Below, in pieces: positions 13,230-49,598 of a stretch of DNA of 63,144 nt. Both the position numbers and the translations under genes were made by a program. Each line of letters begins with the position of its first letter. Within the stretch, counting starts at the first letter, position 1. Below the pieces are notes generated by a model that did not search any database, had not been told where the DNA came from, and was given only the letters and a program-made list of their open reading frames with translations. The DNA comes from Thermoplasmata archaeon (GTDB taxonomy: Archaea; Thermoplasmatota; E2; DHVEG-1): the NCBI GenBank assembly GCA_003942085.1, contig DQIQ01000004.1:1-63144 (forward strand). Direction: 5' to 3'.

Positions 13230-13231
13230 GT

Positions 13232-17260: not shown

Positions 17261-17643
17261 TGAAAGGAAGGACCATCTCGCCAGGGAAAGCCAAGGGGAT
17301 CGCATTAGTCTCAAAGGAACCGATCGGGTTCTACGGCGGCATCAACATCAAAACCGGTATCGTGATAGAGAAAGGCCATCCTCTTGAGGGAAAGAACGTC
17401 AAAGATAAGATTTTGGTCTTTCCCTGCGGCAAAGGTTCCACCGTCGGCTCCTATGTAATTTACGGGCTGCAGAAGAACGGTGTTGCCCCGAAAGGAATCA
17501 TCAACAAAGAAACAGAGACCATTGTCGCAACCGGGGTCATCCTCGCCGGCATCCCTTGTGTCGATAAGATCGATATTGATCAGATCAAAGACGGGGACAC
17601 AGTGGTCTTAAACGCTGATAATGCGACCATCGAAGTCGCATAG
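17257..17643 (+). CDS. aconitase X swivel domain protein (DUF126); phosphomevalonate dehydratase small subunit
   Basis: 128 aa with GKAKGIALVSKEPIGFYGGIN and VFPCGKGSTVGSYV motifs. Translationally coupled to the large subunit. Confidence 0.8.
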   Translation: MMKGRTISPGKAKGIALVSKEPIGFYGGINIKTGIVIEKGHPLEGKNVKDKILVFPCGKGSTVGSYVIYGLQKNGVAPKGIINKETETIVATGVILAGIPCVDKIDIDQIKDGDTVVLNADNATIEVA

Positions 17644-18941: not shown

Positions 18942-19085
18942 TCTCCACCAAACGATATCGTTATACAGTGCTTCTGACAGGAGGATATTAATAGTTTCTT
19001 GTACAAGCGGTACCCTTTTGGCACGCGCGCATATTTTTATTAATACAGTGAACAATTACCCTCAACCACGTGCGGAGGCAGCGGT

Positions 19086-19601
19086 ATGATAGAAAAACGC
19101 GATATTGAGAACTGTTTTTCAGAGCTTTCCTGGATACAAAACAAAGACCTCAGAAAAAAGGTCGTAGACGTATGGAAAATCGCTGCTGATCGCGGAGGAT
19201 GGAAGCAGCTTCAGGAAATCCCGTTTACTCTTCTTTTTGAGAACTCAGGGCCTCTTGTCGACCATACGAAAAGGATAACAAAACTAGCATGGACCGTGGT
19301 CAATGCAAGGGATGAGCCTCTCAATAAGGATCATTTGATCGCTGGTGCATTGCTTCATGATGTCGGCAAACTTCTTGAATATGAGATGAAAGCCGGAAAA
19401 ATCGTCAAAAGCAGCTTTGGGGAAAAAACACGCCATCCTGCTGCTGGTGCTCAGCTTGCCGAGGAATATAAGCTTCCTAAGGAAGTCGTCCATATCATCG
19501 CTGCACATAGTCATGAGGGAGACACAATGAATCGGTCACCTGAGGCAATCATTGTTCATCATTGTGATTTTATAGACTTTGAAATCAAAAAAAGGAAGTG
19601 A
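19086..19601 (+). CDS. HD-domain metal-dependent phosphohydrolase
   Basis: 171 aa with H..HD motif GALLHDVGK and a downstream HSHEGD. Confidence 0.7.
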   Translation: MIEKRDIENCFSELSWIQNKDLRKKVVDVWKIAADRGGWKQLQEIPFTLLFENSGPLVDHTKRITKLAWTVVNARDEPLNKDHLIAGALLHDVGKLLEYEMKAGKIVKSSFGEKTRHPAAGAQLAEEYKLPKEVVHIIAAHSHEGDTMNRSPEAIIVHHCDFIDFEIKKRK

Positions 19602-19605
19602 CACA

Positions 19606-21102: not shown

Positions 21103-21869
21103 AGTGGAAAACCTCGATTTCTAAGATAGAACCGAATCATATTATGACCAAAGGGTACCGACAGGAGGATCTCATTGGGAACGTCCCCTTTCCTCATGTG
21201 GTGTACCTCTTGTTGAAAGGAACGCTCCCGACACAGGAGCAAGGGAATATGGTTGATGCAATCCTTACCTCATGTATCGATCATGGCCTCACGCCACCGT
21301 CATCTATCGCATCCCGGACCGTCGCATCTGGCGGAGTCCCTTTACCTACTGCGGTCGCTGCAGGGATTCTCTCGATCGGGGATGCCCATGGTGGCGCGAT
21401 AGAAAAAGGGGCAAAAATCCTCCAAGAAGGCGTTCTTCAGATGAAAAAAGAAGGAAAATCTGCGGATTTGATAGCAGCAGCCCTGGTGAAGGAAAGCAAT
21501 GAGCAGAAGAAGCGGATCCCCGGGTTTGGTCATCGAATCCATACTGCGGACCCTCGGACAAAAAGGTTATTTGAACTGGCTGAAGAGCTCAAAATAGCAA
21601 AGGACCATGTTGCCCTTTGCCAGGCCATTGAAACCGCACTTGAGAAATCCCAGGGAAAAAAACTTCCGATTAATGTGGATGGCGCGATCGCCGCGATCAT
21701 CTCTGACATGGGCTTTGACTGGCGTTTAGGCAAAGCATTCTTTTTGCTTGGCAGGGTCGCAGGGCTCACCGCACAGGTTTACGAAGAACAGACCCAGGAA
21801 AAACCGATGCGTGAGATGTTTACGATTGATTATGATTATGTCGGCCCGGGGGAAAAAAACCTCCCCTAA
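21099..21869 (+). CDS. citryl-CoA lyase-like protein (short citrate-synthase family)
   Basis: ~256 aa with DHGLTPPS, GDAHGGA and GFGHRIHTADPR, the citrate synthase active-site blocks without the large N-terminal domain. ATGA overlap with the citF stop. Confidence 0.65.
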   Translation: MKWKTSISKIEPNHIMTKGYRQEDLIGNVPFPHVVYLLLKGTLPTQEQGNMVDAILTSCIDHGLTPPSSIASRTVASGGVPLPTAVAAGILSIGDAHGGAIEKGAKILQEGVLQMKKEGKSADLIAAALVKESNEQKKRIPGFGHRIHTADPRTKRLFELAEELKIAKDHVALCQAIETALEKSQGKKLPINVDGAIAAIISDMGFDWRLGKAFFLLGRVAGLTAQVYEEQTQEKPMREMFTIDYDYVGPGEKNLP

Positions 21870-21985: not shown

Positions 21986-23305
21986 ATGAAGATACTATTG
22001 GTGTTTCCAAGAATCGAGCATGGAGCCTCAACATATTCAGATAAAGGTTCGTGGGCATCCCTACTGCTCGGCTATGCGGTCATCACGTTACCTCATATTG
22101 CAGGGATTACTCCTCGCCAGCATTCGGTGACCATCGTAGATGAGAACTACGAGGACATAGATTTTTCTGCAGACGCAGACTTGATAGGAATCACTTGCTA
22201 CACGATGACGGCTCCCCGTGTGTATGAGATAGCTGATGAGTTCAGACGACGGGGTAAAAAGGTGGTCCTGGGTGGATATCATCCCACGGCGATGCCAGAA
22301 GAAGCAACCCAGCACGCAGACAGTATCTTGCGTGGTGAGGTCGAATTGACCTGGCCTCAGATGCTACAGGACGCTGAACAAGGGAAGATGAAAACGATTT
22401 ATGAGGCAAACCCTGATTTTGACATGGCCCTGATTCCACCGATCCGCCGAGACCTCATTCGACATAACCCTTTCATCGGAGCGGTGCAGACTTCTCGGGG
22501 ATGCCCGAACCGCTGTGAGTTCTGCGCAATAACCAGTTTCTGTCAACATGGCGTGAAGCACCGACCGATCAAGAATGTCATAGAGGAAATGAAACAAATC
22601 CCAAACTCAGTGTTCATCATTCATGATCCAAGCCTCACCATCAACCCTCCATATTCCCGAGAGTTATTTCAAGAGATGATCAAGCACAAAATAAAGAAAG
22701 GATGGATCGCGAATGGGAATGCCAATGTGCTGGGGAAAATCGACGATGAGTTCCTCTGTCTCGCCAGGAAATCCGGATGCGTCGAATGGTTCGTCGGGTT
22801 TGAATCCATAAGCCAAGCGTCTTTGAACGGCATTAAAAAAACCGTAAACAAGGTTGAGGATTTCAAACGCATGATTAAACGTGTTCATGACCATGGGATG
22901 ACCGTTCAAGGTGGCATAATCTTTGGATTTGATCAAGACACCCCAGATATTTTTGAGACCACTTTGGAAAAGGTCAAAGAATGGGGACTTGACTGCTTAG
23001 AGGTAAACATTCTCACTCCGTACCCCGGTACCCCCTTGTTTGACCGTTTGGAAAAAGAAGGAAGGATTCTGACGAAAGACTGGTCACGCTACAATCAAGT
23101 AGACGTCGTGTATCAACCCAAACAAATGACTCCACAGGAGCTCATAGAAGGCTCCCGGATGGTCGCAAAGCAGTATTATACCATGACAAACGTGATGTTC
23201 CGGGCGCTAAAGATCCTTGCAATCACACGGAAGCGTGCTGGATTGGTCCCCGCGGGAACGAACTACACATTCCGAAGATACTACAAACGAGATTTCCATA
23301 TCTAG
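21986..23305 (+). CDS. B12-binding-domain radical SAM protein (class B)
   Basis: N-terminal cobalamin-binding-like Rossmann region (KILLVFP...IGITCYT...VVLGGYHPT). CxxxCxxC motif in TSRGCPNRCEFCAI. Confidence 0.8.
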   Translation: MKILLVFPRIEHGASTYSDKGSWASLLLGYAVITLPHIAGITPRQHSVTIVDENYEDIDFSADADLIGITCYTMTAPRVYEIADEFRRRGKKVVLGGYHPTAMPEEATQHADSILRGEVELTWPQMLQDAEQGKMKTIYEANPDFDMALIPPIRRDLIRHNPFIGAVQTSRGCPNRCEFCAITSFCQHGVKHRPIKNVIEEMKQIPNSVFIIHDPSLTINPPYSRELFQEMIKHKIKKGWIANGNANVLGKIDDEFLCLARKSGCVEWFVGFESISQASLNGIKKTVNKVEDFKRMIKRVHDHGMTVQGGIIFGFDQDTPDIFETTLEKVKEWGLDCLEVNILTPYPGTPLFDRLEKEGRILTKDWSRYNQVDVVYQPKQMTPQELIEGSRMVAKQYYTMTNVMFRALKILAITRKRAGLVPAGTNYTFRRYYKRDFHI

Positions 23306-23325
23306 CTTATAGACAAAATAGATCA

Positions 23326-24645
23326 TCAGGCGCTGTTCACAATCAATTTGAATTTCCCTGTTTTCTCATCGAGGGGAAGATCGTTGACGACTTTCACGCT
23401 GTACGTCACATTGGTGAATTTTTTCTCCGCGAGGATTCGATCGAGTTCTTGTCGTATGCGCTGCTCTACCAGTACGTGGTCTCCGTTGATAACCGCTCGA
23501 AATTCAAATGATGTTTTGTCTTTTATCGCGAATTGGAGTTTCTCTAGTCCGCTGACATAAAATTCTGCAATCACGATAGGATGGATAAAGTCCATGACTC
23601 CCTCGCGGTTCTGTAACCAGATCATGGATTCCGATCGTCCGATGATATTATCGACGAAGGTGAAAGGCAGGATCTTCCGCTGGTCTTTTTTCAGGTTGAA
23701 CATATCATTGATTTTGTAGCGAATCAAAGGCTGGGTATAGTTAAAGAGGTTTGTTATGAGGGCATACTCGTCCTTGAATTCTATCAGACATAAATCATCC
23801 ATGAGGTACATACCATCGTATTCCCGTTTTCCTGTTCCAAGGACCGGGCATTCCGCAAGACCGTAGTTATTGGTCATGGGCGCGTGAAACGCTTCTTCAA
23901 TGCCCTCCTGGTCTTTAGGGATAATCCCTTCACCGCAATTCACCACGATTCGAGGATGGATCTGTAGATTACCTTGTTTTTGTTGTTTAGCAAGGATTGT
24001 TAATCCAGTGAAATATCCGCCGAGGATGTCCGGCTGGAAGATATTTAGCCTCTTGACATGGTCCTGCAACGGTTTTGTGATATCAAGGATCAGAGGATCG
24101 CAAAAAAATCCGATGACGCCGCGTCGACACCAGGCGGTGAAACTCACCCCTGTAAAATGACCGGTGGTTGCACCATAAAACACAGATTTGCTTTTATGGA
24201 ACCCTAAATCAGACACCCGTATGATATAGGGGAAAAACCGGTCCCAGTCATTGCCCGCGTAGACAAACATCCCTATTTTTCCGGATGACCCTGAGGTATG
24301 CAGCACATGATATTTTCCGAGATACAGATCATTTGGGTCTCTGTTTTCCTGGATGAACTTCTGAACGCCTTTTTTTGTCACATCACGTTGGGTCATCACC
24401 TCATCAAAGTGCTCCATGAGAATGTCTTTATCAACGATCGGGAGGTCTTCGATGTCGACGGTCTTTATTGACTCTGAAGTAATACCAGCCGACGTATACA
24501 AATCATGATAAAAACGCGAATGTTGGAACGCGTGCTGAAGTAATGCACGGAATTTTTTTTGCTGGAGGCGAAGAATATTCTCACGGGATTTCTTTTCGTT
24601 TCTGCGCATCGCAAGATAACTTCGTACTAGGGTAAACGTGCTCAT
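23326..24645 (-). CDS. PaaK/coenzyme F390 synthetase-like adenylate-forming ligase (paralog 1, divergent)
   Basis: 439 aa with P-loop-like AMP motif HTSGSSGKIGMFVY and the ANL-superfamily layout. Confidence 0.65.
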   Translation of the reverse strand: MSTFTLVRSYLAMRRNEKKSRENILRLQQKKFRALLQHAFQHSRFYHDLYTSAGITSESIKTVDIEDLPIVDKDILMEHFDEVMTQRDVTKKGVQKFIQENRDPNDLYLGKYHVLHTSGSSGKIGMFVYAGNDWDRFFPYIIRVSDLGFHKSKSVFYGATTGHFTGVSFTAWCRRGVIGFFCDPLILDITKPLQDHVKRLNIFQPDILGGYFTGLTILAKQQKQGNLQIHPRIVVNCGEGIIPKDQEGIEEAFHAPMTNNYGLAECPVLGTGKREYDGMYLMDDLCLIEFKDEYALITNLFNYTQPLIRYKINDMFNLKKDQRKILPFTFVDNIIGRSESMIWLQNREGVMDFIHPIVIAEFYVSGLEKLQFAIKDKTSFEFRAVINGDHVLVEQRIRQELDRILAEKKFTNVTYSVKVVNDLPLDEKTGKFKLIVNSA

Positions 24646-24875
24646 ACGACCCGACTTTCCATTGCCAGAATGAAATAACCGAGGTTTTTTTTATACCTTT
24701 TGCCTTCAATATTGATTGGACCTTTGTTGTATATGATTTAGGAGCGTCCTCGCATACGGCGCAAACAGCTGGCTGCCATAAAATTATCTAAGGAAAGAAT
24801 GAGGCACTACATGAAAAAAGCATAAATGTTTATAACCAGAAAATGATTTCTGCCAGTGACAGGAGTACAACAGCA

Positions 24876-26270
24876 ATGAATCCATTTTTCGACCCGGTGT
24901 TTTACCTCCGTCTTGCGAAAAGTTATCTTTCAGATATCAACCGAGTCTGGCATACTGATCTGCAGCAGCTGAAAAAATATCAAGACCAGGCGTTTCGTCA
25001 GATGGTACGGTACGCGTATACGGTCCCTCTGTATCATCAAAAATACAAGGCCAACAATATTCATCCCAGTGATATCAAAGGGACGAGCGATGCTTTGAAG
25101 CTGCCCTGTATCACCAAAGACGACCTTAAAACACATTATCCTGTCGGGATTATTCCAAAAGGATATGATACGTCCAAAGGGTTTCAAGTGAGCACCTCCG
25201 GGTCGACCGGAAAACCAGTACGCATCTATTTCGATGTTTTCAGTGCGATAAAAGGTTTGGAAGGGTTTGTCAGGGAACTGCGTACCTATGGAGGGAACTG
25301 GCAGCGTTCACGGGTAATGCTCATCATTGAAAACCATCCGGGTAGCTTTGAGCATGCACTCTTCTCCGGAAGCGTGCTACCGTTCCTGAATCATTTCATC
25401 TCTCTGAAGAACATCCGCTACATTCACATTAGTGAAAAACCAGAAACTATTATGAAGCAGATAAACGAGTTTCAACCGGAGTTCCTCGGTTCTGATCCGA
25501 ATATGTTACGACAGCTTGCATTTTTAAAGGAACATGGAGAAGCACCTGATCTTCACCCCACCACGCTACTTTCTGGTGCCGCAATGCTTGATAGTTACAC
25601 CAGGCGATATGTTGAACAAGCATTCGGTGCAACCTTGTATGATACCTACGGGGCGACCGAAGCAGGACCGATCGCGTTCGAATGTATCGACAAGGGTATG
25701 TACCATGTTCATTCAGATTTTGTGTTCCTTGAGTGTCTCGATGATGATAATACCCCGGTTGCTCCAGGAGAAATCGGACGTGCGGTGGTAAGCCGCCTCT
25801 ATGGTGGAGGGACGCCGATTATCAGATACACCGGAATTGAGGACCTGGTCACCCCTGCTGAGGCAAAGTCGTCATGTGGGATTACCACGGAGATGATTCA
25901 ACACATTGGAGGAAGGTCAACCGACCTCTTCATTTTGCCAAACGGTTCCTTTATGTCACCGCTCATCGTCACAGGCATTCCGGCTGAGACCATGGAGCAT
26001 TTCCATTCGTATAAGATACAACAGTTCCAAATCGTTCAGCAAAGCAAAAATGAAATCGAGGTTTTCGTCGTCATTGACAGCCACCTCAGGAATGTCGGTG
26101 TCCCAATAAATGAACTTTTCTCGGAGATGAAAAAACGGTTTACCCAGGCTATTGGTCTAGGGGTCGAAATCAAGATTACTGAGACCGATGAAATCCAGCC
26201 TGGCGTCGCATCAGATCATGTCAAGGTAGCGATTTCAAAAGTGCACGATCCGGCCAAAAAATTACATTAA
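24876..26270 (+). CDS. PaaK/coenzyme F390 synthetase-like adenylate-forming ligase (paralog 2)
   Basis: VPLYHQKY, STSGSTGKPVRIYFD and YDTYGATE motifs. Clear paralog of 35909-37312. The ATG at 24876 (MNPFF) is preferred. Confidence 0.7.
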   Translation: MNPFFDPVFYLRLAKSYLSDINRVWHTDLQQLKKYQDQAFRQMVRYAYTVPLYHQKYKANNIHPSDIKGTSDALKLPCITKDDLKTHYPVGIIPKGYDTSKGFQVSTSGSTGKPVRIYFDVFSAIKGLEGFVRELRTYGGNWQRSRVMLIIENHPGSFEHALFSGSVLPFLNHFISLKNIRYIHISEKPETIMKQINEFQPEFLGSDPNMLRQLAFLKEHGEAPDLHPTTLLSGAAMLDSYTRRYVEQAFGATLYDTYGATEAGPIAFECIDKGMYHVHSDFVFLECLDDDNTPVAPGEIGRAVVSRLYGGGTPIIRYTGIEDLVTPAEAKSSCGITTEMIQHIGGRSTDLFILPNGSFMSPLIVTGIPAETMEHFHSYKIQQFQIVQQSKNEIEVFVVIDSHLRNVGVPINELFSEMKKRFTQAIGLGVEIKITETDEIQPGVASDHVKVAISKVHDPAKKLH

Positions 26271-26926
26271 TCCAAAGGTTTTTTTATAAGAAAAAAGGAA
26301 GTGATAGAGCCAAGCGTTTCTGATCGGACCTGATCTTTTATTTCAAAATATCGGGAAAGGTCAATCCGATCATCGAGAATTTTGCCCTGGGCATCCGTGA
26401 TGATCCGGACGATGACCCGAGTGTTTGGGCGCACATGGGTTGCGAGATGGGCAATCATCTCCGATTGTCTTTTTACTCCATATAAGACGACAATCACGTC
26501 AAACCCGTCAAAGGGGTAGGAAAACCCGTCCGCACATTCAATTTCCAGGTGATGACCCAGTGAGAACTGTTGGATGTATTCCTTGGAGGCACGGATTGCT
26601 TCTGGGTCTTTGTCGATAGCGACTACAGAAGCATTTGTTTTTTGTGCAAAAAGAACCGCGGTGGAAGGAAGTGATCCACTCCCGATAATAAGGATCCGAT
26701 CGTGTATTGATATCGAAGCCATCCTGATTTCTTCAGAGACGATTTCTTTGTACATATCAAGATACAGTTCTGAGAATATCTGCAGCTTGCTGCCTATTTT
26801 CTCCACGATGATAAACAAACGGTCCATGAGTTGTTTAAACGCGTTCGTTGGAAAGCTATTGGCAATTCGCCTGAAAAGTATAGACTGCATCAGAAGGAAG
26901 AATCGTTCCATCACATGTTTTGCCAT
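26267..26926 (-). CDS. class I SAM-dependent enzyme, nicotianamine-synthase-like signature
   Basis: 219 aa. RILIIGSGSLPSTAVLFA followed by VVAIDKDPEA. The GxGxxPxT form of motif I resembles NAS/CntL-type aminocarboxypropyl transferases rather than the usual GxGxG. Confidence 0.4.
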   Translation of the reverse strand: MAKHVMERFFLLMQSILFRRIANSFPTNAFKQLMDRLFIIVEKIGSKLQIFSELYLDMYKEIVSEEIRMASISIHDRILIIGSGSLPSTAVLFAQKTNASVVAIDKDPEAIRASKEYIQQFSLGHHLEIECADGFSYPFDGFDVIVVLYGVKRQSEMIAHLATHVRPNTRVIVRIITDAQGKILDDRIDLSRYFEIKDQVRSETLGSITSFFLIKKPLD

Positions 26927-26959
26927 ACTGTCTCTGTGAGCTCCATCGTTGTTGTCTCT

Positions 26960-27901
26960 TTAAATGTAATGTTCCTTTTCAAGCCATTGTCGTACCCGCT
27001 TCATCCCCTCTTCATAAGCAACCGCGGGCTTATAATTTAAAAGGGTTTTTGCTTTTTTTAATGATACTGAGTTTTGATTGGTAAATATCTCAACGGCAAC
27101 GGGTGTTACCCATGGTTCGATTTTAATGAGAGTATACCCTGCCATCATGAGTTTTCCTACCACTAATGCGGTTCGTTTTGACATGTGCTTCTTAATCGGT
27201 GGTTTTCCCGCCATTTTTGCCAGAGCGTTTAGATAATCACCCCACGTAGTCGCATTATCCCCATCAGTGATATCAATACTCTCACCGATCACACCAGGTT
27301 CTCGTAAAGCGACAAGTAAGGCATCAAGGAGATTGTCAATATACGTATGCAGAAAGATGCCGGTTCCTTTGTCGATGAGTGCAATTCGGTTTTTTTGAAT
27401 AGCTAAAAGAGGCCGCAGCACCCAGGTTTTTGCACCAGGTCCATAGACGTTTCCAGGACGAATGATGACAACAGGGAAGTGATCATGGGTATATTTCTCT
27501 ATAAGGATATGTTCTGCTGCCGCCTTTGTTTTATGGTAGTACCCTCTGCTTTTTCCGGTTTCATATCTGATGTGTGAGAGATAGATGAACTTCTTTATCA
27601 AGGATGCTTCACTAGCGGCAATAAGGTTTTTTGTTCCCTCGATGTTTATTTGATCGAAAATGTGCCTTGGTCCGTAGTCTTTCACCAGTGCGGCACAGTG
27701 AAACACGACATCGACCTGATCCATCGAGGATTTAAGAAATGCAGAATCAGTGATATCGCCGGAAAGGTATTCCACTTGTTTATGAAAAAATGTCGGTTGA
27801 GTATGATGGATAATGCCGCGAACAAAATGACCCTCAGATACAAGTCGTTGTACTAACGAACTTCCGATGAACCCTGCTGCTCCGGTGATGAGACATCTCA
27901 T
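26960..27901 (-). CDS. NAD(P)-dependent epimerase/dehydratase family SDR
   Basis: ITGAAGFIGSSL Rossmann motif and YHKTK (YxxxK) catalytic motif. ATGA overlap with the upstream UbiA gene. Confidence 0.8.
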   Translation of the reverse strand: MRCLITGAAGFIGSSLVQRLVSEGHFVRGIIHHTQPTFFHKQVEYLSGDITDSAFLKSSMDQVDVVFHCAALVKDYGPRHIFDQINIEGTKNLIAASEASLIKKFIYLSHIRYETGKSRGYYHKTKAAAEHILIEKYTHDHFPVVIIRPGNVYGPGAKTWVLRPLLAIQKNRIALIDKGTGIFLHTYIDNLLDALLVALREPGVIGESIDITDGDNATTWGDYLNALAKMAGKPPIKKHMSKRTALVVGKLMMAGYTLIKIEPWVTPVAVEIFTNQNSVSLKKAKTLLNYKPAVAYEEGMKRVRQWLEKEHYI

Positions 27902-28884
27902 GCGCCCTTCACCTGAAACTCATAGCGTTTCCTGAGAAGATACTGAGAACCGCTGGTGATGACGAGGGCAACGAGGTAGACCAGGATTGCTATAGGGATA
28001 CTCGCTATTCCAAATATGAATGCGGAGGCAAGAGTGATCCGTTCGATGACAAAAAATTCATGGAACCGTAATCCTTTCTCCCGTGAATAAGACGACAGGG
28101 ATCGAAATAAATAGAGGTACATCACCAGGAGAATGGCTGCATCGATGATGATGATCAGATAAAATTGAATAGCCAGAAAATGATAGTACAAGGGGAGGAT
28201 CAACGACAGAGGAAGCCATATAGCAGTCAGGAGTAAAGAAAAATAAATGGAGATTTTTACTCCATATTTTACGGGGATGGTCTGGTAGCCGCCTTTTTTA
28301 TCTCCTTCGATGTCTCGAATCGCACCCACAAGATTGCTGTTCGTATCATGCAGGAGGAAAACGACGGAGAGCAACCATACATACGGGGGAAGTGAGGAAA
28401 GGGAAGCACCGGTAGCAAATATCCCAAAAAAATAAGCAGCCATGGTAACCAACCCTCTATTGACATTACCACTGAGACCATGTGATTTTGAAACGTTCGT
28501 ATACAGAAACACCAGGAGAGCGACCACAAAAACAAGCACGACATTATAGAAACTTAACAGAAAAGTCAGAAAAAAACCTGCGAACGCAAAGCAGGCACCG
28601 ACGATGATTGCTTCCTTTGGTTTGATTCTGCCTGAAGGAATGGGGCGATGAGGTTTCTGGATTGAATCCAGTTTTCTATCGAGATAATCTGAGAGGTACA
28701 ATCCTGCGATCCAGCCCATGATCGGGATGAACAGTACCAACAGTGCTATTGATATCGATGGAAAATTCCCCAGGGCAACGCATGTGCCGACGAGGCTGAC
28801 CAACCCGCACCATATCACCGTATATAGCCGCATGGTCTCAAGATGCGCGAAGAGTTTTGTTTTCAACAAGGACGAGGACGTCAC
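27898..28884 (-). CDS. UbiA-family polyprenyltransferase (paralog 1)
   Basis: 328 aa, polytopic. First Asp-rich motif LSDYLDRKLDSIQKPHRPIPSG and second motif RDIEGDKKGGYQTIPV. GTG start. Confidence 0.8.
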   Translation of the reverse strand: MTSSSLLKTKLFAHLETMRLYTVIWCGLVSLVGTCVALGNFPSISIALLVLFIPIMGWIAGLYLSDYLDRKLDSIQKPHRPIPSGRIKPKEAIIVGACFAFAGFFLTFLLSFYNVVLVFVVALLVFLYTNVSKSHGLSGNVNRGLVTMAAYFFGIFATGASLSSLPPYVWLLSVVFLLHDTNSNLVGAIRDIEGDKKGGYQTIPVKYGVKISIYFSLLLTAIWLPLSLILPLYYHFLAIQFYLIIIIDAAILLVMYLYLFRSLSSYSREKGLRFHEFFVIERITLASAFIFGIASIPIAILVYLVALVITSGSQYLLRKRYEFQVKGA

Positions 28885-29003
28885 CTAGACAGCTCCGCTA
28901 TATACAGGGAATGATAATCATTACATTTAAACCTTTAACATGAAGCAATCCCCATATCATTTATTTGATACAACGACACCTTGAAAAAAAAGGGTAACAA
29001 TGG

Positions 29004-29663
29004 ATGAAAACAGCGAAGAAATTAAAAAAAGTCTCAGCATTCCAAGCAGCAGGAGACAAAATGACTCGCACCTCGTTTGATAAAACAGCACTGTTATACA
29101 ATTTTATCGAAAAACGCATCTGGGATGACTATACAAGTGCGTGCAAAATCATTGAAGGGTATTTAACTCTTGAATCAGAAGAAAAAATAATAGACATTGG
29201 TGGAGGGACCGGATTAATTGCTAAGCTGCTTCGTAGCAAAAAACAGAACGACGACATCATGGTTTTTGATCTTTCTTGCAGTATGCTGCAAAAAGTGAAG
29301 GATCCATCATTGTCTTTAACCCAAGGGGACGCGACAGCCTTTCCCCTGAAAGATGAGACGTTTACCCTGGCGATTCTCATCAATACGCTACACCACATTC
29401 CTCAAACCAAACAACAGGTTGCATTGCAGGAGGTTTTTCGAATTTTAAAAAAACAAGGCAGAATATTCATAATCGAGTTATGGTATCCAAAATCGTTTCT
29501 AACAAATCTTTTTGTAAAAACCGAAAAAATAATGGTTGGAAAAACCCATCATCTCACTCCCGATAAAATGCACCTTTTGGTACAGGATGCAGGGTTCCAT
29601 GGAATAAAGGTTTTTTCCCCAAAGAACTATCACTATCGTTATGTCACCACCGCAGTAAAATAA
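29004..29663 (+). CDS. class I SAM-dependent methyltransferase (Methyltransf_11-like)
   Basis: IIDIGGGTGLIA motif I, VFDLS acidic loop, and GRIFIIE post-III motif. Confidence 0.75.
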   Translation: MKTAKKLKKVSAFQAAGDKMTRTSFDKTALLYNFIEKRIWDDYTSACKIIEGYLTLESEEKIIDIGGGTGLIAKLLRSKKQNDDIMVFDLSCSMLQKVKDPSLSLTQGDATAFPLKDETFTLAILINTLHHIPQTKQQVALQEVFRILKKQGRIFIIELWYPKSFLTNLFVKTEKIMVGKTHHLTPDKMHLLVQDAGFHGIKVFSPKNYHYRYVTTAVK

Positions 29664-29767
29664 CCAGTGATTATCGTTTTTGCTTTCATGGTATTACTCC
29701 AGATGGTCAGGGAAATCACGAGAAGACAATTTTAATAAACACCAGCTGGTTTCCTAGCGTCCATCAT

Positions 29768-30721
29768 ATGAAAAAGAATATTCTATCCATGCTTGACATT
29801 GCTGAGGAAATCGAAGAAATCATCGATCTTGGAATTAAAATGAAACATGAGGTGAAAGCAGGTAAACATTACGATGCTTTACAAGGAAAAACACTTGCCA
29901 TGATTTTTGATCGTCAATCAACAAGGACCCGGGTCTCTTTTGAGGTTGGTATGACGTTGCTAGGGGGACATGCGATCTTTCTTACCGGTGGTGAGATGGG
30001 GATAGGACAACGAGAATCCCCTGAGGATATCGCATACGTGTTATCCAGGTATGTCGATGCGATTGTGTACCGGCCAATCAACACATCCCATTTACAAGAA
30101 TTAGCTGCACATGCGACAGTACCGGTCATTAACGGACTTGACCGCGAGGAACACCCCTGCCAGATACTTGCTGACCTTATGACGATAAAAGAAAAAAAAG
30201 GTCGACTTGAAGGTCTTACCTTTACGTTTATTGGTGATGGAGACGATAATCTTGCACACTCTTACCTCTTAGGATGTACACTGACTGGAATGAATGTAAC
30301 GGTGGTCTCCCCGAAGAAATATTGGCCAAATGAGTATTATACCACACGATCAAAAGATATTGCTTGTAAGAAAAACCACACGGTGACCATTACTGAGGAT
30401 ATCAACACCATTGCACAAACCGATGTGATTGCAACCGACACTCATGTATCTTTTTGGTTCGACCATGAACGACAACAACGACGGATGGATCTCTCCAGCT
30501 ACATGGTCACATCAGAGATAATAAAGAAAGCAAAACCAGATGTGATCTTCATGCATTGTATGCCGATGTATTATGGAGAAGAAGTCGCCAAAGACGTTGC
30601 GCACGGGCAGAACTCCGTTGTTATTGACGAAGCGGAGAACCGATTATGGGTGCAAATAGCACTGCTAATCATGCTTCTACGGGAACACCCATCCGAAAAA
30701 ATGCAAGAGAAGAATCTGTAA
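29768..30721 (+). CDS. ornithine-carbamoyltransferase-family transcarbamylase with atypical second-substrate motifs
   Basis: STRTRVSFE and HPCQILAD carbamoyl-phosphate motifs are intact. The canonical DxxxSMG is replaced by DTHVSFW, and HCLPAxRGEE by HCMPMYYGEE. Confidence 0.7.
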   Translation: MKKNILSMLDIAEEIEEIIDLGIKMKHEVKAGKHYDALQGKTLAMIFDRQSTRTRVSFEVGMTLLGGHAIFLTGGEMGIGQRESPEDIAYVLSRYVDAIVYRPINTSHLQELAAHATVPVINGLDREEHPCQILADLMTIKEKKGRLEGLTFTFIGDGDDNLAHSYLLGCTLTGMNVTVVSPKKYWPNEYYTTRSKDIACKKNHTVTITEDINTIAQTDVIATDTHVSFWFDHERQQRRMDLSSYMVTSEIIKKAKPDVIFMHCMPMYYGEEVAKDVAHGQNSVVIDEAENRLWVQIALLIMLLREHPSEKMQEKNL

Positions 30722-31804
30722 TGTCACATCGATGAAAATCAATACGTAGGAGAATATCAAGAAGTTGAATCCTACTCTCCCGATCTTTTTACCCAGCTGT
30801 CTTTGTTGCTCCCCTTGTGAATGGACCAGCAGATAAAAACGAGAAATCGTGAATAACCACAGAAGGACGAAGGGGATGATGAACAGCATGGAAAGAATAG
30901 TTTGCGTATAGAGCAGGATCCCAAGAATTCCAGCGATGACGACCATGATGAACGCGACACGTGCAGTGATGCCCACCCCAAACGATGTTGCGTAGGTTCG
31001 TACCCCGAATCGTCGGTCACCTTCAGAATCGTGGATTCCTTCGACAAGATCGTGCGCGTCATCCGCAAAATAGGTAAAGGCTATGAGCAGGAGCAATGGG
31101 ATTACCTGGGAACGATGTATGGAAAGAATACCAAGGAGGGGAACCATAAAAGTCACATCTCCGTTCAGAGGGAGCGCAGACCAAAGCACAATTGCTCCAA
31201 TCAGGGGGACGACGAGCCATTGCATCGGAGTAAAAATTTCTGAATATGCAGGAAACTTGATTCGTTTCTTAAGATATCTGTTGTGGAACGCCACAAACAA
31301 CGCAGCCAAGCCAACGATGAAAAAGCACCAGGGACTGATGAGAAAAGCAAAGAGAAACGTGAGTGCCGAGAACAATAATGCGATCATGAAGAAGCGACCT
31401 GAGGTGATAGCACCTCGGGGGATAGGGCGGCTGGGGTGAACAATCCGATCGATATCGACATCGGTGATATCATTCCAGATGAGGGCGGCAAAAAAACCGC
31501 AATACTGTGTGGCGATTGCAAGGATGATTACTTTAATGATTTCCCAGGTATACAACTGAAAACCATAGAACAACAGAGGTACACAAGCAAACATCATGAA
31601 ATAACTGATGAGCTCATAAAATGGAAACGCACGCCAGTTAATAAGAAAATAAAATGGATGTTTAAACGGGGATTCTTTTGATGATTCGGTGTTTTGGGGC
31701 ATGGTCGCCACGATTTTCTTTGTAATGTAATTGAGTGAGACTAAAAAAAGTTTCTTCCTTCGCATCGGTACTATGCTGTTTTCTTCAGATAAAATGCATC
31801 CCAT
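30677..31804 (-). CDS. UbiA-family polyprenyltransferase (paralog 2)
   Basis: Polytopic. WNDITDVDIDRIVHPSRPIPRG and DDAHDLVEGIHDSEGDRRFG motifs. Start is uncertain (31804, 31765 or 31702). The 3' end overlaps the convergent gene by 45 nt. Confidence 0.75.
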   Translation of the reverse strand: MGCILSEENSIVPMRRKKLFLVSLNYITKKIVATMPQNTESSKESPFKHPFYFLINWRAFPFYELISYFMMFACVPLLFYGFQLYTWEIIKVIILAIATQYCGFFAALIWNDITDVDIDRIVHPSRPIPRGAITSGRFFMIALLFSALTFLFAFLISPWCFFIVGLAALFVAFHNRYLKKRIKFPAYSEIFTPMQWLVVPLIGAIVLWSALPLNGDVTFMVPLLGILSIHRSQVIPLLLLIAFTYFADDAHDLVEGIHDSEGDRRFGVRTYATSFGVGITARVAFIMVVIAGILGILLYTQTILSMLFIIPFVLLWLFTISRFYLLVHSQGEQQRQLGKKIGRVGFNFLIFSYVLIFIDVTLQILLLHFFGWVFP

Positions 31805-32403
31805 GCGATTGGTGCTATCAGGAGGAATGAATCATGGTGCATCTGTTTAAGGATGACGATGGAGGGGTATTTGTCGATGCACCGGCAGATGTCTTTGGAA
31901 GCGACGTGTAACTCGCGAACGATGATGATGGTATTCGGTTTTGCCGTCGTAAAGATATGCTCCAGGATACTAGCCTTGGGGTACGAACAGGTTGACACAA
32001 TGATGACATCGAAGGGTTTAACAGGATATGAGGATCCATCACCTTCGTAAATATTCACTTTTTTTTCCAATCCTTTTTTTTTCAGGACATCCCGTGCTTG
32101 CCGTACCGCATCCGGGTCCTTATCGATTCCCACGATCTTTACTTTTCCAAGAGAAGCAAGCTCAATCACCGTGAGAGGGTACGGCCCACAGCCGATGTGC
32201 AGAATTTTACTGTTTTCAGAAATGCCAACAGACTCATATTCAGATTTATATTCAGTTGCGATCGCTTTATTATAATGTTCTGCGATTCTTTGATTTTTAT
32301 AGGACCACACATCCATGATATGCCAAAAATAATTCGAAATGCCTTTAATAGGCCAGACGAAGAATCTTTCTATGATCGGTTGTTTTTCTCCCCGTTGTCG
32401 CAT
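31771..32403 (-). CDS. class I SAM-dependent enzyme, nicotianamine-synthase-like signature (second copy)
   Basis: 210 aa with ILHIGCGPYPLTVIELA then IVGIDKDPDA. Same GxGxxPxT variant as 26267-26926 and directly upstream of a UbiA gene. Confidence 0.4.
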   Translation of the reverse strand: MRQRGEKQPIIERFFVWPIKGISNYFWHIMDVWSYKNQRIAEHYNKAIATEYKSEYESVGISENSKILHIGCGPYPLTVIELASLGKVKIVGIDKDPDAVRQARDVLKKKGLEKKVNIYEGDGSSYPVKPFDVIIVSTCSYPKASILEHIFTTAKPNTIIIVRELHVASKDICRCIDKYPSIVILKQMHHDSFLLIAPIAWDAFYLKKTA

Positions 32404-32427: not shown

Positions 32428-32760
32428 TCAACTTTCTCTGGATATATCCCTGCTATTATTTGTATTTATACTTGAATCATGCTTGATGTTGAACCGTGTT
32501 GAAGCATATCTTTTTTTCATTGTTACCAAGATAACATTACAGCTGATGCCGACCGCGTTTGCGATTATTATTGCGATATCGATTCGAAGGGCCCCATAGA
32601 TCAACCAGAGGGACATCCCTAAAGCAAGAAGTAAAGGCATCCCGTAGGAGACATCGTCAAGTTTCTTGGTGCGATATCCCCGAACGATCTGAGGAAAAAA
32701 CCCTATTGAGGTGATTGCTCCTGCAGAAAAACCTATGACCGTAATCAAATCAATATTCAT
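32428..32760 (-). CDS. SemiSWEET / PQ-loop family transporter
   Basis: Three TM helices with FFPQIVRGYRTKKLDDVS (PQ motif). The ATG at 32760 is preferred over the TTG at 32781. Confidence 0.6.
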   Translation of the reverse strand: MNIDLITVIGFSAGAITSIGFFPQIVRGYRTKKLDDVSYGMPLLLALGMSLWLIYGALRIDIAIIIANAVGISCNVILVTMKKRYASTRFNIKHDSSINTNNSRDISRES

Positions 32761-32851
32761 GGACCGTAATTCATCCAACAAAGTATATTAAGTCTTCCTT
32801 ATATCCACGCATAAGTTTTTCAATGAATATCAGATGAAGAGAAATATCTCT

Positions 32852-49597: not shown

Positions 49598-49598
49598 C

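What the first reader, a model, noticed from the sequence alone, without database searches (positions are those of the whole stretch)
21986..32403. Dense, uncharacterised biosynthetic cluster: B12-radical SAM, PaaK-like ligases, two UbiA prenyltransferases, NAS-like SAM enzymes, SDR, methyltransferase and an atypical transcarbamylase
Ten contiguous genes with short or overlapping junctions:
- class B radical SAM (21986-23305);
- two ANL/PaaK-like ligases (23326-24645, 24876-26270);
- NAS-like SAM enzyme, SDR and UbiA on one minus-strand operon (26267-28884, with an ATGA coupling);
- methyltransferase (29004-29663);
- OTC-family enzyme with altered substrate motifs (29768-30721);
- a second NAS-like + UbiA pair (30677-32403).

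I know of no characterised pathway with this combination. Two candidate themes are tailoring of an isoprenoid lipid or quinone, and assembly of a polyprenyl-phosphate-linked sugar or amino-acid conjugate. The second is by analogy to UbiA-type phosphoribosyltransferase plus SDR epimerase in decaprenyl-phospho-arabinose synthesis.

The cluster lies downstream of the mevalonate-pathway genes. It continues thematically at 35909-40006 on the other side of a tRNA islet.
Basis: partly seen in the sequence, partly recalled or inferred. Interest (0 to 1): 0.75.

Follow-up and report, generated by a model that had tools for sequence, protein, structure and literature searches.

The report
Conserved archaeal membrane-lipid tailoring gene island
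This is a real gene cluster, conserved in about twenty uncultured Thermoplasmatota species and with no characterised counterpart, that most likely builds or decorates isoprenoid ether membrane lipids and includes an ornithine-carbamoyltransferase relative that has lost the ornithine-recognition motif.

Summary
All ten ORFs and their domain assignments are confirmed. The organism is an uncultured Thermoplasmatota archaeon.

The cluster is not a chance juxtaposition. In about 20 species-level genomes the order is PQ-loop > NAS-like > UbiA_B > < OTC-like … UbiA_A > reductase > NAS-like > < B12-rSAM < citryl-CoA lyase < CitF. A CrtC/AttH-like isoprenoid hydratase is almost always present.

In other Thermoplasmatota, the same NAS-like family sits next to the mevalonate operon and next to MprF-type flippase-like proteins.

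The OTC-like enzyme belongs to a distinct clade. DxxxSMG is replaced by DTxxS[FLIY]W, and HCLP by HCMP. Its nearest canonical relative lies in an argG-argH-argF operon; this clade lies against UbiA_B.

PaaK2 and the UbiE-like methyltransferase are lineage-specific accessories.

Best reading (about 0.55): an isoprenoid ether-lipid tailoring island. Tail chemistry is analogous to the Ted/Hgs pair (B12-rSAM plus AttH-like hydratase). Head-group or backbone chemistry (DGGGPS-like UbiA, keto-reductase, NAS/CntL-like SAM transferase, adenylating ligases, atypical carbamoyltransferase) is uncharacterised. The product is unknown.

The quinone and polyprenyl-phosphate-sugar themes are not.

The parts
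12183..14542 (+). Mevalonate kinase (12183-13229) and UbiD-type anhydromevalonate-phosphate decarboxylase (13232-14542): context, isoprenoid precursor supply.
   Evidence: TIGR00549 scores 239.9 against a cut-off of 163. UbiD family scores 338.5 against 244.85. In 15 other species a NAS-like gene is the immediate neighbour of this MVK.
16076..17643 (+). AcnX large and small subunits (phosphomevalonate dehydratase of the archaeal mevalonate pathway): context.
   Evidence: Pfam AcnX E 6e-160 and AcnX_swivel E 1e-32.
17649..19055 (-). Divergent CrtC/AttH-like lipocalin hydratase homolog ('unk468').
   Evidence: Pfam CrtC, Lipocalin_9 and DUF7065 hits are only weak (E about 0.005-0.009). Its family aligns to the in-cluster F3 family with hhalign probability 99.6% and E 6.6e-25, and hmmsearch gives 2.3e-21. 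F3 passes the Pfam CrtC gathering score (26.4 against 22.5). The gene is adjacent to AcnX in 11 species.
19086..21869 (+). HD phosphohydrolase (19086-19601), CitF citrate CoA-transferase (19579-21102) and citryl-CoA lyase (21045-21869). They are co-oriented with the rSAM and are the likely acetyl-CoA supply.
   Evidence: citryl-CoA lyase NF004869 scores 301.7 against 212; citF scores 501.3 against 501.45. CS-like and rSAM are adjacent in 9 species.
21986..23305 (+). Class B (cobalamin-binding) radical SAM enzyme with DUF4070.
   Evidence: Pfam B12-binding, Radical_SAM and DUF4070. No equivalog cut-off is reached. Best PDB hit is QCMT 9ccb at only E 1e-12. Orthologs are 63-75% identical in 19 species, and 16 of those loci also hold an AttH-like gene, 33-83 nt away in four of them.
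23326..24645 (-). PaaK/F390-synthetase-like adenylate-forming enzyme (PaaK2): lineage-specific accessory.
   Evidence: TIGR02304 E 1.7e-27 over the full length. PaaK 4r1l E 2e-5. Orthologs were found only in the same-species contig L001.
24843..26270 (+). PaaK-like adenylate-forming ligase (PaaK1).
   Evidence: AMP-binding. PaaK 4r1l E 8e-26. P-loop STSGSTGKP is present. Family members are found in 12 species loci, and a shorter PaaK-like family (F28) in 7 more.
26267..26926 (-). NAS/CntL-like class I SAM-dependent transferase (NAS_A).
   Evidence: PF03059 scores 29.0 against 27.1; CntL E 2e-11. It is 30% identical to NAS_B.
26960..27901 (-). Extended SDR (3-beta-HSD / OleD / HpnA-like keto-reductase), translationally coupled to UbiA_A.
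   Evidence: ATGA overlap. Adjacent to UbiA_A in 14 species. Replaced by a PanE/ApbA-type reductase in 4 species.
27898..28884 (-). UbiA-family prenyltransferase, DGGGP-synthase-like (UbiA_A).
   Evidence: PF01040 E 6e-38. Best PDB hit is DGGGPS 6m31 at E 2.6e-24. NCBIfam DGGGPS models score 122-141 bits against cut-offs of 269-296. IMG names its homologs DGGGPS.
29004..29663 (+). UbiE-like class I methyltransferase: accessory, seen only in the closest relatives.
   Evidence: Present in 4 of 73 species loci. A CrtC/AttH-like gene occupies this slot in most other genomes.
29768..30721 (+). OTC-family carbamoyltransferase of a distinct 'SxW' clade.
   Evidence: OTC HMM cut-offs are met, but DxxxSMG is replaced by DTHVSFW and HCLP by HCMP. 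The changes are conserved in 20 syntenic orthologs and 120 database homologs. No SxW sequence occurs among the 150 best 50%-identity cluster representatives. The gene is always in the same locus as UbiA_B.
30677..31804 (-). Second UbiA-family prenyltransferase (UbiA_B); the probable start is near 31765.
   Evidence: PF01040 E 3.6e-22. DGGGPS 6m31 E 3.9e-10. It is 25% identical to UbiA_A. The motifs NDITDVDID and HDSEGD are present.
31771..32403 (-). NAS/CntL-like class I SAM-dependent transferase (NAS_B).
   Evidence: PF03059 scores 35.6 against 27.1. Family profile against the PDB: CntL 2.8e-17, MtNAS 2.7e-11, best methyltransferase 2.4e-7. Model pLDDT is 90.5 and the top Foldseek hit is MtNAS.
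32428..32781 (-). PQ-loop / SemiSWEET-like small membrane protein, first gene of the NAS_B-UbiA_B unit.
   Evidence: Pfam MtN3_slv and PQ-loop. Adjacent to the NAS-like gene in 9 species.
35909..40006 (.). Third PaaK-like ligase (35909-37312, -), divergent from a cysteate synthase-PAPS reductase fusion (37362-39386, +) and a phosphatidyl/archaetidylserine decarboxylase (39383-40006, +).
   Evidence: cysteate synthase 400.9 against 324.9; PAPS reductase 163 against 154; PSD 198 against 183. The trio is conserved in L011, L012, L014 and L018.

Best explanation
The region is a lineage-specific 'lipid island' of an uncultured Thermoplasmatota archaeon. It makes or decorates isoprenoid ether membrane lipids.

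Shown:
- The cluster is conserved.
- The families are as named.
- Related genomes give it an isoprenoid and membrane-lipid genomic context.

Inferred mechanism:
1. CitF plus citryl-CoA lyase cleave citrate to acetyl-CoA. This feeds the adjacent archaeal mevalonate pathway and yields prenyl diphosphates.
2. The two DGGGPS-like UbiA enzymes form prenyl-ether bonds on phosphorylated hydroxy acceptors. UbiA_A may be the organism's own DGGGP synthase. UbiA_B is a second, specialised paralog.
3. The SDR is translationally coupled to UbiA_A and is replaced in some genomes by a PanE/ApbA-type reductase. It reduces a keto group of the acceptor or head group.
4. The NAS/CntL-like enzymes sit beside each UbiA and carry an amphipathic two-helix N-terminus. 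They transfer an alkyl group from SAM to a head-group nucleophile. A 3-amino-3-carboxypropyl group is slightly favoured over methyl.
5. The PaaK-like ligases adenylate a carboxylate to form an amide or thioester.
6. The SxW-clade OTC-like enzyme carbamoylates a primary amine of an ornithine-like moiety whose distal end is no longer a free alpha-amino acid.
7. The B12-radical SAM enzyme and the CrtC/AttH-like hydratase modify the saturated isoprenoid tails by C-H activation followed by hydration, as the Ted/Hgs pair does when making hydroxy-GDGTs.
8. The PQ-loop protein, and elsewhere MprF-type flippase-like proteins, move the substrate or product across the membrane.
For: Synteny:
- The order PQ > NAS_B > UbiA_B > < OTC … UbiA_A > reductase > NAS_A > < rSAM < CCL < CitF recurs in about 20 of 73 species-representative genomes that hold a NAS-like gene.
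- Of 26 UbiA-bearing loci, 22 hold a CrtC/AttH-like gene, 18 a B12-rSAM, 17 a reductase and 12 a PaaK-like ligase.

Independent isoprenoid and lipid links:
- The NAS-like gene is the immediate neighbour of an LPG_synthase_TM (MprF flippase-like) gene in 19 species, of mevalonate kinase in 15, of UbiA_B in 12 and of the CrtC-like gene in 10.
- One MAG can hold both contexts (LSSG01 gives L032 and L065).
- In L083 the UbiA-NAS pair sits with a GT28/UDPGT glycosyltransferase, an NTP-transferase, the rSAM ortholog (65% identical) and a CrtC-like gene 33 nt downstream of it.

Family evidence:
- Both UbiA proteins are closest to DGGGPS 6m31.
- The F3 family passes the Pfam CrtC cut-off, and the window's 17649-19055 family aligns to it at 99.6% probability.

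Precedent:
- The B12-rSAM Ted plus the overlapping AttH-like Hgs make unsaturated and hydroxy-GDGTs. Other B12-rSAMs (Grs, Gmm, GDGT methylases) tailor archaeal lipid tails (bioRxiv 10.1101/2025.10.20.683597; PMC11214058).

Further lipid-related genes in the window:
- PSD.
- A cysteate synthase fusion.
- An HAE3/HpnN-like RND transporter.
- A DedA/VTT protein.
Against: - No product or activity is known for any gene here.
- The rSAM is 439 aa, whereas Ted homologs were defined as at least 500 aa. I could not compare the sequences.
- In the window the AttH-like gene is 2.9 kb from the rSAM, on the other strand and next to AcnX.
- The rSAM is co-oriented with CitF/CCL and could act on a small molecule.
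- Foldseek cannot separate NAS-like from ordinary methyltransferases.
- The NAS N-terminal substrate domain is absent, and the one catalytic-residue mapping I tried failed.
- The OTC-like enzyme keeps D231, S235, N167 and C273 equivalents and passes OTC HMM cut-offs, so it may still be the cell's ornithine carbamoyltransferase.
- Its link to UbiA_B is a convergent adjacency, not an operon.
- All related genomes belong to one phylum, so part of the synteny may be inherited gene order.
Confidence: 0.55

Rival explanations
1. A mosaic of unrelated housekeeping genes. These would be argF, the lineage's DGGGP synthase, generic methyltransferases, PaaK-type aryl-acid ligases and a citrate-lyase operon. 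Their order is conserved only because the genomes are related, and there is no common pathway.
For: - The OTC-like protein passes NCBIfam OTC cut-offs, and all databases name it ornithine carbamoyltransferase.
- IMG names UbiA_A homologs DGGGPS.
- Units lie on alternating strands, and OTC and UbiA_B are convergent.
- PaaK2 and the methyltransferase are not conserved.
- All syntenic genomes belong to one phylum.
Against: - Neighbours between the modules vary (methyltransferase or CrtC-like; SDR or PanE-like reductase; with or without PaaK-like), while the UbiA/NAS/reductase/rSAM/hydratase combination persists at only 45-55% protein identity.
- The NAS-like family re-associates with lipid genes in a second, unrelated context.
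- The OTC clade has lost DxxxSMG. Its nearest SMG relative in the same phylum sits in an argG-argH-argF operon.
Confidence: 0.17
2. Biosynthesis of a prenylated aromatic or redox lipid, a quinone- or phenazine-like membrane electron carrier. PaaK-like ligases would activate an aryl acid, UbiA would prenylate it, and the methyltransferases and B12-rSAM would methylate it.
For: - PaaK-like ligases and a UbiE/COQ5-like methyltransferase are present.
- Related clusters L005 and L038 hold a 2-oxoacid:ferredoxin oxidoreductase, as in aryl-acid metabolism.
Against: - UbiA_A and UbiA_B score far lower against aromatic prenyltransferase models (UbiA about 36 bits, MenA about 28 bits) than against DGGGPS and chlorophyll synthase.
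- The UbiE-like methyltransferase is present in only 4 of 73 loci.
- There are no ring-forming or ring-hydroxylating genes.
- The CrtC-like hydratase and MprF-like neighbours point to lipid tails and head groups.
Confidence: 0.1
3. Assembly of a polyprenyl-phosphate-linked sugar or amino-acid carrier for cell-surface glycans. This is the reader's second theme: a UbiA-type phosphoribosyl/glycosyl transferase plus an SDR epimerase, as in decaprenyl-phospho-arabinose synthesis.
For: - The SDR is of the sugar-nucleotide epimerase/dehydratase type.
- PQ-loop proteins include MPDU1-like factors (my own knowledge).
- L083 holds an NTP-transferase and a glycosyltransferase next to UbiA-NAS.
- The window has a glycan cluster at 48-63 kb.
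Against: - The DPPR-synthase model NF008977 scores 28.5 against a cut-off of 234.
- There is no DprE1-like FAD oxidase.
- The SDR is replaced by a 2-oxoacid-type reductase in some genomes.
- The theme does not explain the CrtC-like hydratases or the mevalonate and flippase-like contexts any better than the lipid reading does.
Confidence: 0.1
4. An opine or nicotianamine-type metallophore, possibly lipid-anchored. The NAS/CntL-like enzyme would add an aminobutyrate unit, a reductase would perform the CntM-like reductive condensation, and the PQ-loop protein would export the product.
For: - The family profile is closest to CntL and MtNAS.
- The NAS-like gene is next to an NAD(P)H reductase. In four genomes this is a PanE/ApbA-type enzyme with a G3P-DH-like N-terminal domain. 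That fold class also contains opine dehydrogenases (the fold relation is from my own knowledge).
Against: - No metal-uptake genes are nearby.
- There are strong links to UbiA, the mevalonate operon and flippase-like genes.
- The NAS N-terminal substrate domain is missing.
Confidence: 0.05

Closest known systems
Ted/Hgs: B12-radical SAM tetraether desaturase plus AttH-like hydroxy-GDGT synthase (Garcia et al., bioRxiv 10.1101/2025.10.20.683597)
   Same: A cobalamin-type radical SAM gene is genomically tied to a CrtC/AttH-like hydratase gene in an archaeal lipid context. In relatives the two genes are 33-83 nt apart on one strand. Ted homologs are reported in Thermoplasmatota.
   Different: The rSAM here is 439 aa with DUF4070, whereas Ted is at least 500 aa. 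Hgs homologs were reported almost only in Methanobacteriota and Bathyarchaeota, so these hydratases are a different, divergent branch. In the window the hydratase is 2.9 kb away and divergent. The reaction (desaturation, methylation or other) is unknown.
Digeranylgeranylglyceryl phosphate synthase (DGGGPS; PDB 6M31)
   Same: It is the best structural-database relative of both UbiA proteins, and both Asp-rich motifs are present. It is an O-prenylating, ether-forming branch of the UbiA family.
   Different: Both score at half or less of the curated DGGGPS cut-offs. There are two paralogs, 25% identical to each other. Each is paired with a NAS-like gene, and one is translationally coupled to a keto-reductase. 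None of this is part of canonical archaeol synthesis.
Nicotianamine synthase / CntL aminobutyrate (3-amino-3-carboxypropyl) transferases
   Same: Pfam NAS scores above the gathering threshold. The G-[SCG]-G-[PAS]-x-P-x-T and xPK motifs are shared. The family profile matches CntL (2.8e-17) and MtNAS (2.7e-11) far better than any methyltransferase. The top Foldseek hit is MtNAS.
   Different: The proteins are only about 210 aa. The roughly 100-residue N-terminal substrate domain is replaced by a two-helix hairpin. The catalytic Glu81 equivalent was not identified. Partners are membrane prenyltransferases, not opine dehydrogenases. The donor group transferred is untested.
Ornithine carbamoyltransferase and its substrate-shifted relatives (PTCase, AOTCase/SOTCase; Shi et al. 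2015, PMC4581275)
   Same: The fold and carbamoyl-phosphate site are intact (STRTR, HPxQ, ENR). It is 40-45% identical to canonical OTCs. As in PTCase, the SMG loop has become aromatic and hydrophobic.
   Different: It has DTxxS[FLIY]W[FY] instead of DxxxSMG, HCMP instead of HCLP, and Arg instead of Lys in FxKxSxRT. It does not match the published PTC, DPTC or DBTC signatures. It lies against a UbiA gene rather than in an arg or agmatine operon.
MprF-type lipid amino-acylation and flipping systems
   Same: In 19 species the NAS-like gene is the immediate neighbour of an LPG_synthase_TM (flippase-like) membrane protein. This suggests head-group modification followed by translocation.
   Different: There is no aminoacyl-tRNA-dependent synthase domain. 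The modifying enzyme is a SAM-dependent transferase. No flippase-like gene is present in this window.

Membership tests
Ornithine carbamoyltransferase (OTCase) | Carbamoyl-phosphate binding motifs SxRTR and HPxQ, and the C-terminal Arg (ENR). | tested here: met
   STRTR, HPCQ and ENR are present in the alignment to P. furiosus OTC 1a1s.
Ornithine carbamoyltransferase (OTCase) | The DxxxSMG ornithine-binding loop, the motif said to distinguish OTCase from other transcarbamylases (PMC4581275). | tested here: not met
   The window has DTHVSFW. The clade consensus DTxxS[FLIY]W[FY] holds in 20 syntenic and 120 database homologs. Asp and Ser are kept; Met-Gly is lost.
Ornithine carbamoyltransferase (OTCase) | Curated HMM cut-off (NCBIfam TIGR00658 / NF001986). 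| tested here: met
   329 bits against 280.85, and 352.7 against 306.
Ornithine carbamoyltransferase (OTCase) | Arginine-biosynthesis genomic context. | tested here: not met
   No arg genes are in the window or in the 20 related loci. The nearest SMG-type Thermoplasmatota OTC (49% identical) lies in argB-argD…argG-argH-argF. Whether a second OTC exists in these genomes could not be tested.
Putrescine carbamoyltransferase (PTCase) | Loop motif (Y/W)(G/W)(V/L/I)x, Gln at the third position of FxxxSxRT, a C-terminal extension of about 20 residues, and the curated HMM cut-off. | tested here: not met
   The loop is F-W-F ([FLIY]-W-[FY] in the clade). The third position is Arg (FDRQSTRT). The length is 317 aa. 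TIGR04384 scores 264.5 against 500.
Nicotianamine synthase / CntL family | Sequence membership (Pfam PF03059 gathering score; NAS-type SAM-binding motif). | tested here: met
   29.0 and 35.6 bits against 27.1. GSGSLPST and GCGPYPLT match the NAS/CntL GxGPxPxT. Profile against the PDB: CntL 2.8e-17.
Nicotianamine synthase / CntL family | N-terminal helical substrate domain and the catalytic Glu (MtNAS E81). | tested here: not met
   The model has only a two-helix hairpin before the Rossmann fold. The invariant Glu55 aligns to a MtNAS Glu that is not the E81Q site.
Nicotianamine synthase / CntL family | Transfer of the 3-amino-3-carboxypropyl group of SAM, with MTA as co-product. | not testable with these tools
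   This needs an enzyme assay. Foldseek scores for NAS and methyltransferases are practically tied.
Class B (cobalamin-dependent) radical SAM | N-terminal B12-binding domain plus a CxxxCxxC radical SAM core. | tested here: met
   PF02310 scores 52.7 bits and PF04055 59.6 bits. CPNRCEFC is present.
Tetraether desaturase Ted | Close sequence homology to Ted (the authors used E of 1e-100 or better and at least 500 aa). | not tested
   No Ted sequence was available. The length (439 aa) is below the authors' threshold.
Tetraether desaturase Ted / Hgs pair | The rSAM gene is adjacent to or overlapping an AttH-like hydratase gene. | tested here: inconclusive
   Sixteen of 19 species loci with the rSAM ortholog hold a CrtC/AttH-like gene, 33-83 nt away in four. 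In the window the hydratase homolog is 2.9 kb away on the other strand.
CrtC/AttH-like hydratases | Pfam CrtC lipocalin domain. | tested here: inconclusive
   The in-cluster family F3 passes (26.4 against 22.5). The window protein 17649-19055 is below the cut-off (17.1 bits) but aligns to F3 at hhalign probability 99.6%.
DGGGP synthase | Curated equivalog cut-offs (NF009521, NF009522, NF009523). | tested here: not met
   UbiA_A scores 141, 122 and 106 bits against 269, 296 and 353. UbiA_B scores 105, 68 and 50. Both have the Asp-rich motifs and DGGGPS 6m31 as best PDB hit.
Decaprenyl-phosphate phosphoribosyltransferase (DPA pathway) | Curated model NF008977. | tested here: not met
   28.5 bits against 234.
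Phenylacetate-CoA ligase PaaK | Curated equivalog cut-offs. | tested here: not met
   PaaK1 scores 95 bits against 646 and PaaK2 32 against 646. The third ligase scores 87 against 646. The ANL P-loop is present.

The most novel reading that the evidence does not exclude
Benthic and freshwater Thermoplasmatota make a so far unknown class of amino-acid-type isoprenoid ether lipids:
- A DGGGPS-like UbiA supplies the prenyl ether.
- A membrane-associated NAS/CntL-like enzyme transfers the 3-amino-3-carboxypropyl group of SAM to the lipid. This would be an archaeal, non-homologous counterpart of betaine-lipid or ornithine-lipid chemistry.
- PaaK-type ligases add amide-linked units.
- A re-purposed OTC (SxW clade) carbamoylates the lipid-bound amine, giving a ureido ('citrulline-like') head group.
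- A B12-rSAM/AttH-like pair hydroxylates the tails.
Probability: 0.15. Interest if true: 0.85.

Novelty: new variant of a known kind. Interest (0 to 1): 0.65.

Why it matters
The membrane lipids of uncultured sedimentary Thermoplasmatota (the MBG-D group and its relatives) are essentially unknown. Archaeal lipids from such sediments are nevertheless used as biomarkers and climate proxies.

The cluster offers three things:
- A compact, conserved and testable gene set, for which expression hosts already exist (T. kodakarensis, M. acetivorans).
- A second, divergent B12-rSAM/AttH-like pair, which could be another source of modified (hydroxylated, unsaturated or methylated) tetraethers.
- Two enzyme families with probable new chemistry: a short NAS/CntL-like SAM transferase partnered with membrane prenyltransferases, and an OTC clade that has lost the ornithine loop.

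It also warns that automated 'ornithine carbamoyltransferase' and 'DGGGP synthase' labels in these genomes may be wrong.

Tried and rejected
- **MtNAS Glu81 mapping.** I tried to map the invariant Glu55 of the NAS-like family onto the catalytic Glu81 of MtNAS by comparing wild-type and E81Q PDB chains. The aligned Glu is not the mutated residue, so no catalytic equivalence can be claimed.
- **Foldseek on the NAS_B model.** I hoped it would separate an aminobutyrate transferase from a methyltransferase. MtNAS is the top hit, but methyltransferases (MitM, CFA synthase, TleD, UbiG) are tied.
- **rSAM identity.** The best PDB relative is the glutamine C-methyltransferase 9ccb at only E 1e-12. All NCBIfam hits are far below their cut-offs. 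I could not obtain Ted, Gmm or Grs sequences for comparison.
- **Literature.** Searches for the gene combination (UbiA + radical SAM + Thermoplasmatota; nicotianamine synthase + UbiA + archaea) found nothing.
- **BDGT idea.** I considered that the cluster makes butanetriol/pentanetriol tetraethers (BDGTs). Nothing speaks for it, and no hit turned up in Methanomassiliicoccus, which I recall as the cultured BDGT producer.
- **Promoter scan.** The sigma-70 and terminator scan is not applicable to archaea and found fewer promoter-like sites than shuffles.
- **Quinone and decaprenyl-phospho-arabinose readings.** Both were rejected on model scores.

Full report

| Coordinates | Strand | Assignment |
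|---|---|---|
| 21986-23305 | + | Cobalamin-type radical SAM enzyme with DUF4070 |
| 23326-24645 | - | PaaK/F390-synthetase-like enzyme (PaaK2); no Pfam hit, full-length TIGR02304 similarity |
| 24843-26270 | + | PaaK/F390-synthetase-like enzyme (PaaK1) |
| 26267-26926 | - | NAS/CntL-like SAM enzyme (NAS_A) |
| 26960-27901 | - | Extended SDR |
| 27898-28884 | - | UbiA (UbiA_A); its stop overlaps the SDR start in ATGA |
| 29004-29663 | + | UbiE-like methyltransferase |
| 29768-30721 | + | OTC-family enzyme |
| 30677-31804 | - | UbiA (UbiA_B) |
| 31771-32403 | - | NAS/CntL-like SAM enzyme (NAS_B) |

- Only the OTC-like protein reaches a curated equivalog cut-off.
- The genes form at least five transcription units on alternating strands.
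- The PQ-loop gene 32428-32781 heads the NAS_B-UbiA_B unit.
- The rSAM follows HD-CitF-citryl-CoA lyase (19086-21869) on the same strand.
- The archaeal mevalonate genes lie upstream: MVK, UbiD-type decarboxylase and AcnX.

**Origin.** The same sequence occurs only on metagenome contigs. Homologs are named Thermoplasmatota, and related loci include the estuarine MAGs SG8-52-3 and SM1-50 as well as lake-sediment and soil MAGs.

**Conservation.**
- The NAS-like family is small: 42 clusters at 90% identity.
- A scan of one genome per species with its alignment gave 73 loci, nearly all Thermoplasmatota.
- tblastn with the window proteins and clustering of all locus ORFs show a recurrent order in about 20 species: PQ-loop > NAS_B > UbiA_B > < OTC-like < (CrtC-like) UbiA_A > reductase > NAS_A > < rSAM < citryl-CoA lyase < CitF.
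- Counts over the 73 loci:

| Gene family | Loci |
|---|---|
| UbiA_A | 20 |
| UbiA_B | 23 |
| OTC-like (always in a locus that also holds UbiA_B) | 20 |
| rSAM ortholog | 19 |
| CrtC-like family F3 | 24 |
| SDR | 14 |

- PaaK2 has orthologs only in the same-species contig.
- The methyltransferase occurs in only four loci. In most genomes its slot holds F3.
- In four loci the SDR is replaced by a PanE/ApbA-type reductase, a non-orthologous replacement that argues for a required keto-reduction.

**Why lipids.**
- F3 passes the Pfam CrtC gathering score. This family hydrates isoprenoid double bonds.
- The window's 17649-19055 protein, next to AcnX, belongs to a family that aligns to F3 at 99.6% hhalign probability.
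- Of the 19 loci with the rSAM ortholog, 16 hold such a hydratase gene, 33-83 nt away in four.
- This mirrors the recently described Ted/Hgs pair. Ted is a B12-rSAM that desaturates GDGT tails. Hgs is an overlapping AttH-like hydratase that then makes hydroxy-GDGTs. Other B12-rSAMs cyclise or methylate archaeal lipid tails.
- In a second group of Thermoplasmatota the NAS-like gene is the immediate neighbour of mevalonate kinase (15 species) and of LPG_synthase_TM, MprF flippase-like, membrane proteins (19 species). One MAG can carry both contexts.
- L083 shows UbiA-NAS next to an NTP-transferase and a GT28/UDPGT glycosyltransferase.
- Both UbiA proteins are closest to DGGGP synthase 6m31. They are only 25% identical to each other.
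- IMG labels UbiA_A homologs as DGGGPS, while NCBI says 'UbiA family prenyltransferase'. UbiA_A may therefore be the lineage's own DGGGPS.
- The window also holds an archaetidylserine-decarboxylase-type gene, a cysteate synthase-PAPS reductase fusion with a third PaaK-like ligase, an HpnN-like RND transporter and a DedA/VTT protein.

**The NAS-like enzymes.**
- A profile of the family matches CntL (2.8e-17) and MtNAS (2.7e-11) far better than any methyltransferase (2.4e-7). It shares the GxGPxPxT and xPK motifs with NAS and CntL.
- A confident model (pLDDT 90.5) shows a Rossmann fold preceded only by a two-helix hairpin. In Foldseek MtNAS ranks first but methyltransferases are tied.
- The invariant Glu55 does not correspond to the MtNAS E81Q site.
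- Membership in the NAS/CntL superfamily is therefore supported. Aminocarboxypropyl transfer is plausible but unproven.

**The OTC-like enzyme.**
- Against P. furiosus OTC, the carbamoyl-phosphate site is intact. The ornithine loop DxxxSMG is DTHVSFW, and HCLP is HCMP.
- The change is conserved in all 20 syntenic orthologs and in the 120 closest database proteins.
- Among the 150 best representatives of 50%-identity clusters, the best full-length hit is 45% identical. The full-length neighbours carry SMG and none carries SxW.
- The published annotation rule treats DxxxSMG as the OTCase signature. The window protein fits none of the PTC, DPTC or DBTC signatures.
- The nearest SMG-type Thermoplasmatota OTC (49% identical) is the last gene of an argG-argH-argF operon with argB and argD upstream. 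The SxW clade always lies beside UbiA_B.
- It keeps the Asp, Ser, Asn and Cys that contact ornithine, so it may still use ornithine or a close analogue.

**Interpretation.**
- The best-supported reading is an isoprenoid ether-lipid tailoring island. Tail chemistry comes from the rSAM/hydratase pair. Head-group or backbone chemistry comes from UbiA, reductase, NAS-like, PaaK-like and OTC-like enzymes.
- Only the conservation, family assignments and contexts are shown. The individual reaction steps are inferred.
- The rivals are a housekeeping mosaic, a prenylated redox lipid, a polyprenyl-phosphate carrier and an opine-type metallophore. All are less well supported but not excluded.

**Limits.**
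- No activity data exist.
- I could not compare the rSAM with Ted, Gmm or Grs sequences.
- I could not check whole genomes for second copies of OTC or DGGGPS.
- All comparative evidence comes from one phylum.

Noticed in passing
window 34913-35051 (-): Rfam finds a third tRNA, 139 nt long (43.5 bits), that ARAGORN did not report. It is probably an intron-containing archaeal tRNA in the 'tRNA islet' between tRNA-Pro(GGG) and tRNA-Lys(CUU).
   Followed up: no
window 19086-21869 (+): An HD phosphohydrolase, a CitF citrate CoA-transferase and a short citrate-synthase-like citryl-CoA lyase (passes NCBIfam) form an operon conserved upstream of the rSAM. CitF plus CCL without CitD/CitE or citryl-CoA synthetase would be an ATP-independent, CoA-transferase-driven citrate cleavage (or synthesis) route. 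It sits between the mevalonate genes and the lipid genes.
   Followed up: partly
window 35909-40006: A cysteate synthase domain is fused to a PAPS reductase domain (674 aa; both pass curated cut-offs). Its end overlaps by 4 nt a phosphatidyl/archaetidylserine decarboxylase gene. It is divergent from a PaaK-like ligase. The trio is conserved in four related genomes. In a non-methanogen this hints at a sulfonate (cysteate- or taurine-type) head group or conjugate.
   Followed up: partly
window 14526-14843 (+): A small ORF with a PAC_bac (proteasome-assembly-chaperone-like) domain lies next to the UbiD-type decarboxylase in 17 species and next to AcnX in 12. It may be an unrecognised accessory of the archaeal mevalonate pathway.
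   Followed up: no
L032, L033, L035, L040, L046 (about 1-4500): In the second group of Thermoplasmatota, carbamoyl-phosphate synthase genes (carA confirmed by Pfam; the neighbouring large-subunit-like ORF was not scanned) lie directly beside the CrtC/AttH-like gene and the AcnX operon. This is a curious echo of the OTC-like gene in the UbiA cluster.
   Followed up: partly
window 42597-45943: A DedA/VTT-domain protein, an HAE3/MMPL RND transporter with a sterol-sensing-like domain (HpnN-like) and a TrmB-type regulator lie together. They are further lipid-transport-type genes near the cluster.
   Followed up: no
window 153-4282 (-): A class III aminotransferase, a saccharopine dehydrogenase and an AlaDH/PNT-domain protein lie in a row. 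The set looks like lysine/saccharopine or polyamine metabolism.
   Followed up: no
window 48395-63140: A surface-glycan cluster holds two NTP-transferase/hexapeptide enzymes, GlmS, a flippase, a GT2, two GDP-mannose-dehydratase-type enzymes, a C-methyltransferase, a PseB-like dehydratase and a DegT aminotransferase. G+C drops markedly (0.32-0.39 at 54-60 kb against about 0.45), which suggests a variable or acquired island.
   Followed up: no
L005/L006 and L038: A variant of the cluster lacks the OTC-like gene. It inserts a four-subunit 2-oxoacid:ferredoxin oxidoreductase, a 393-aa GNAT-like protein and a 436-aa protein of unknown function between the two UbiA/NAS modules.
   Followed up: partly
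window 46909-47697 (-): A SAM hydroxide adenosyltransferase (DUF62 / SAM hydrolase family) gene lies near a cluster rich in SAM-consuming enzymes.
   Followed up: no
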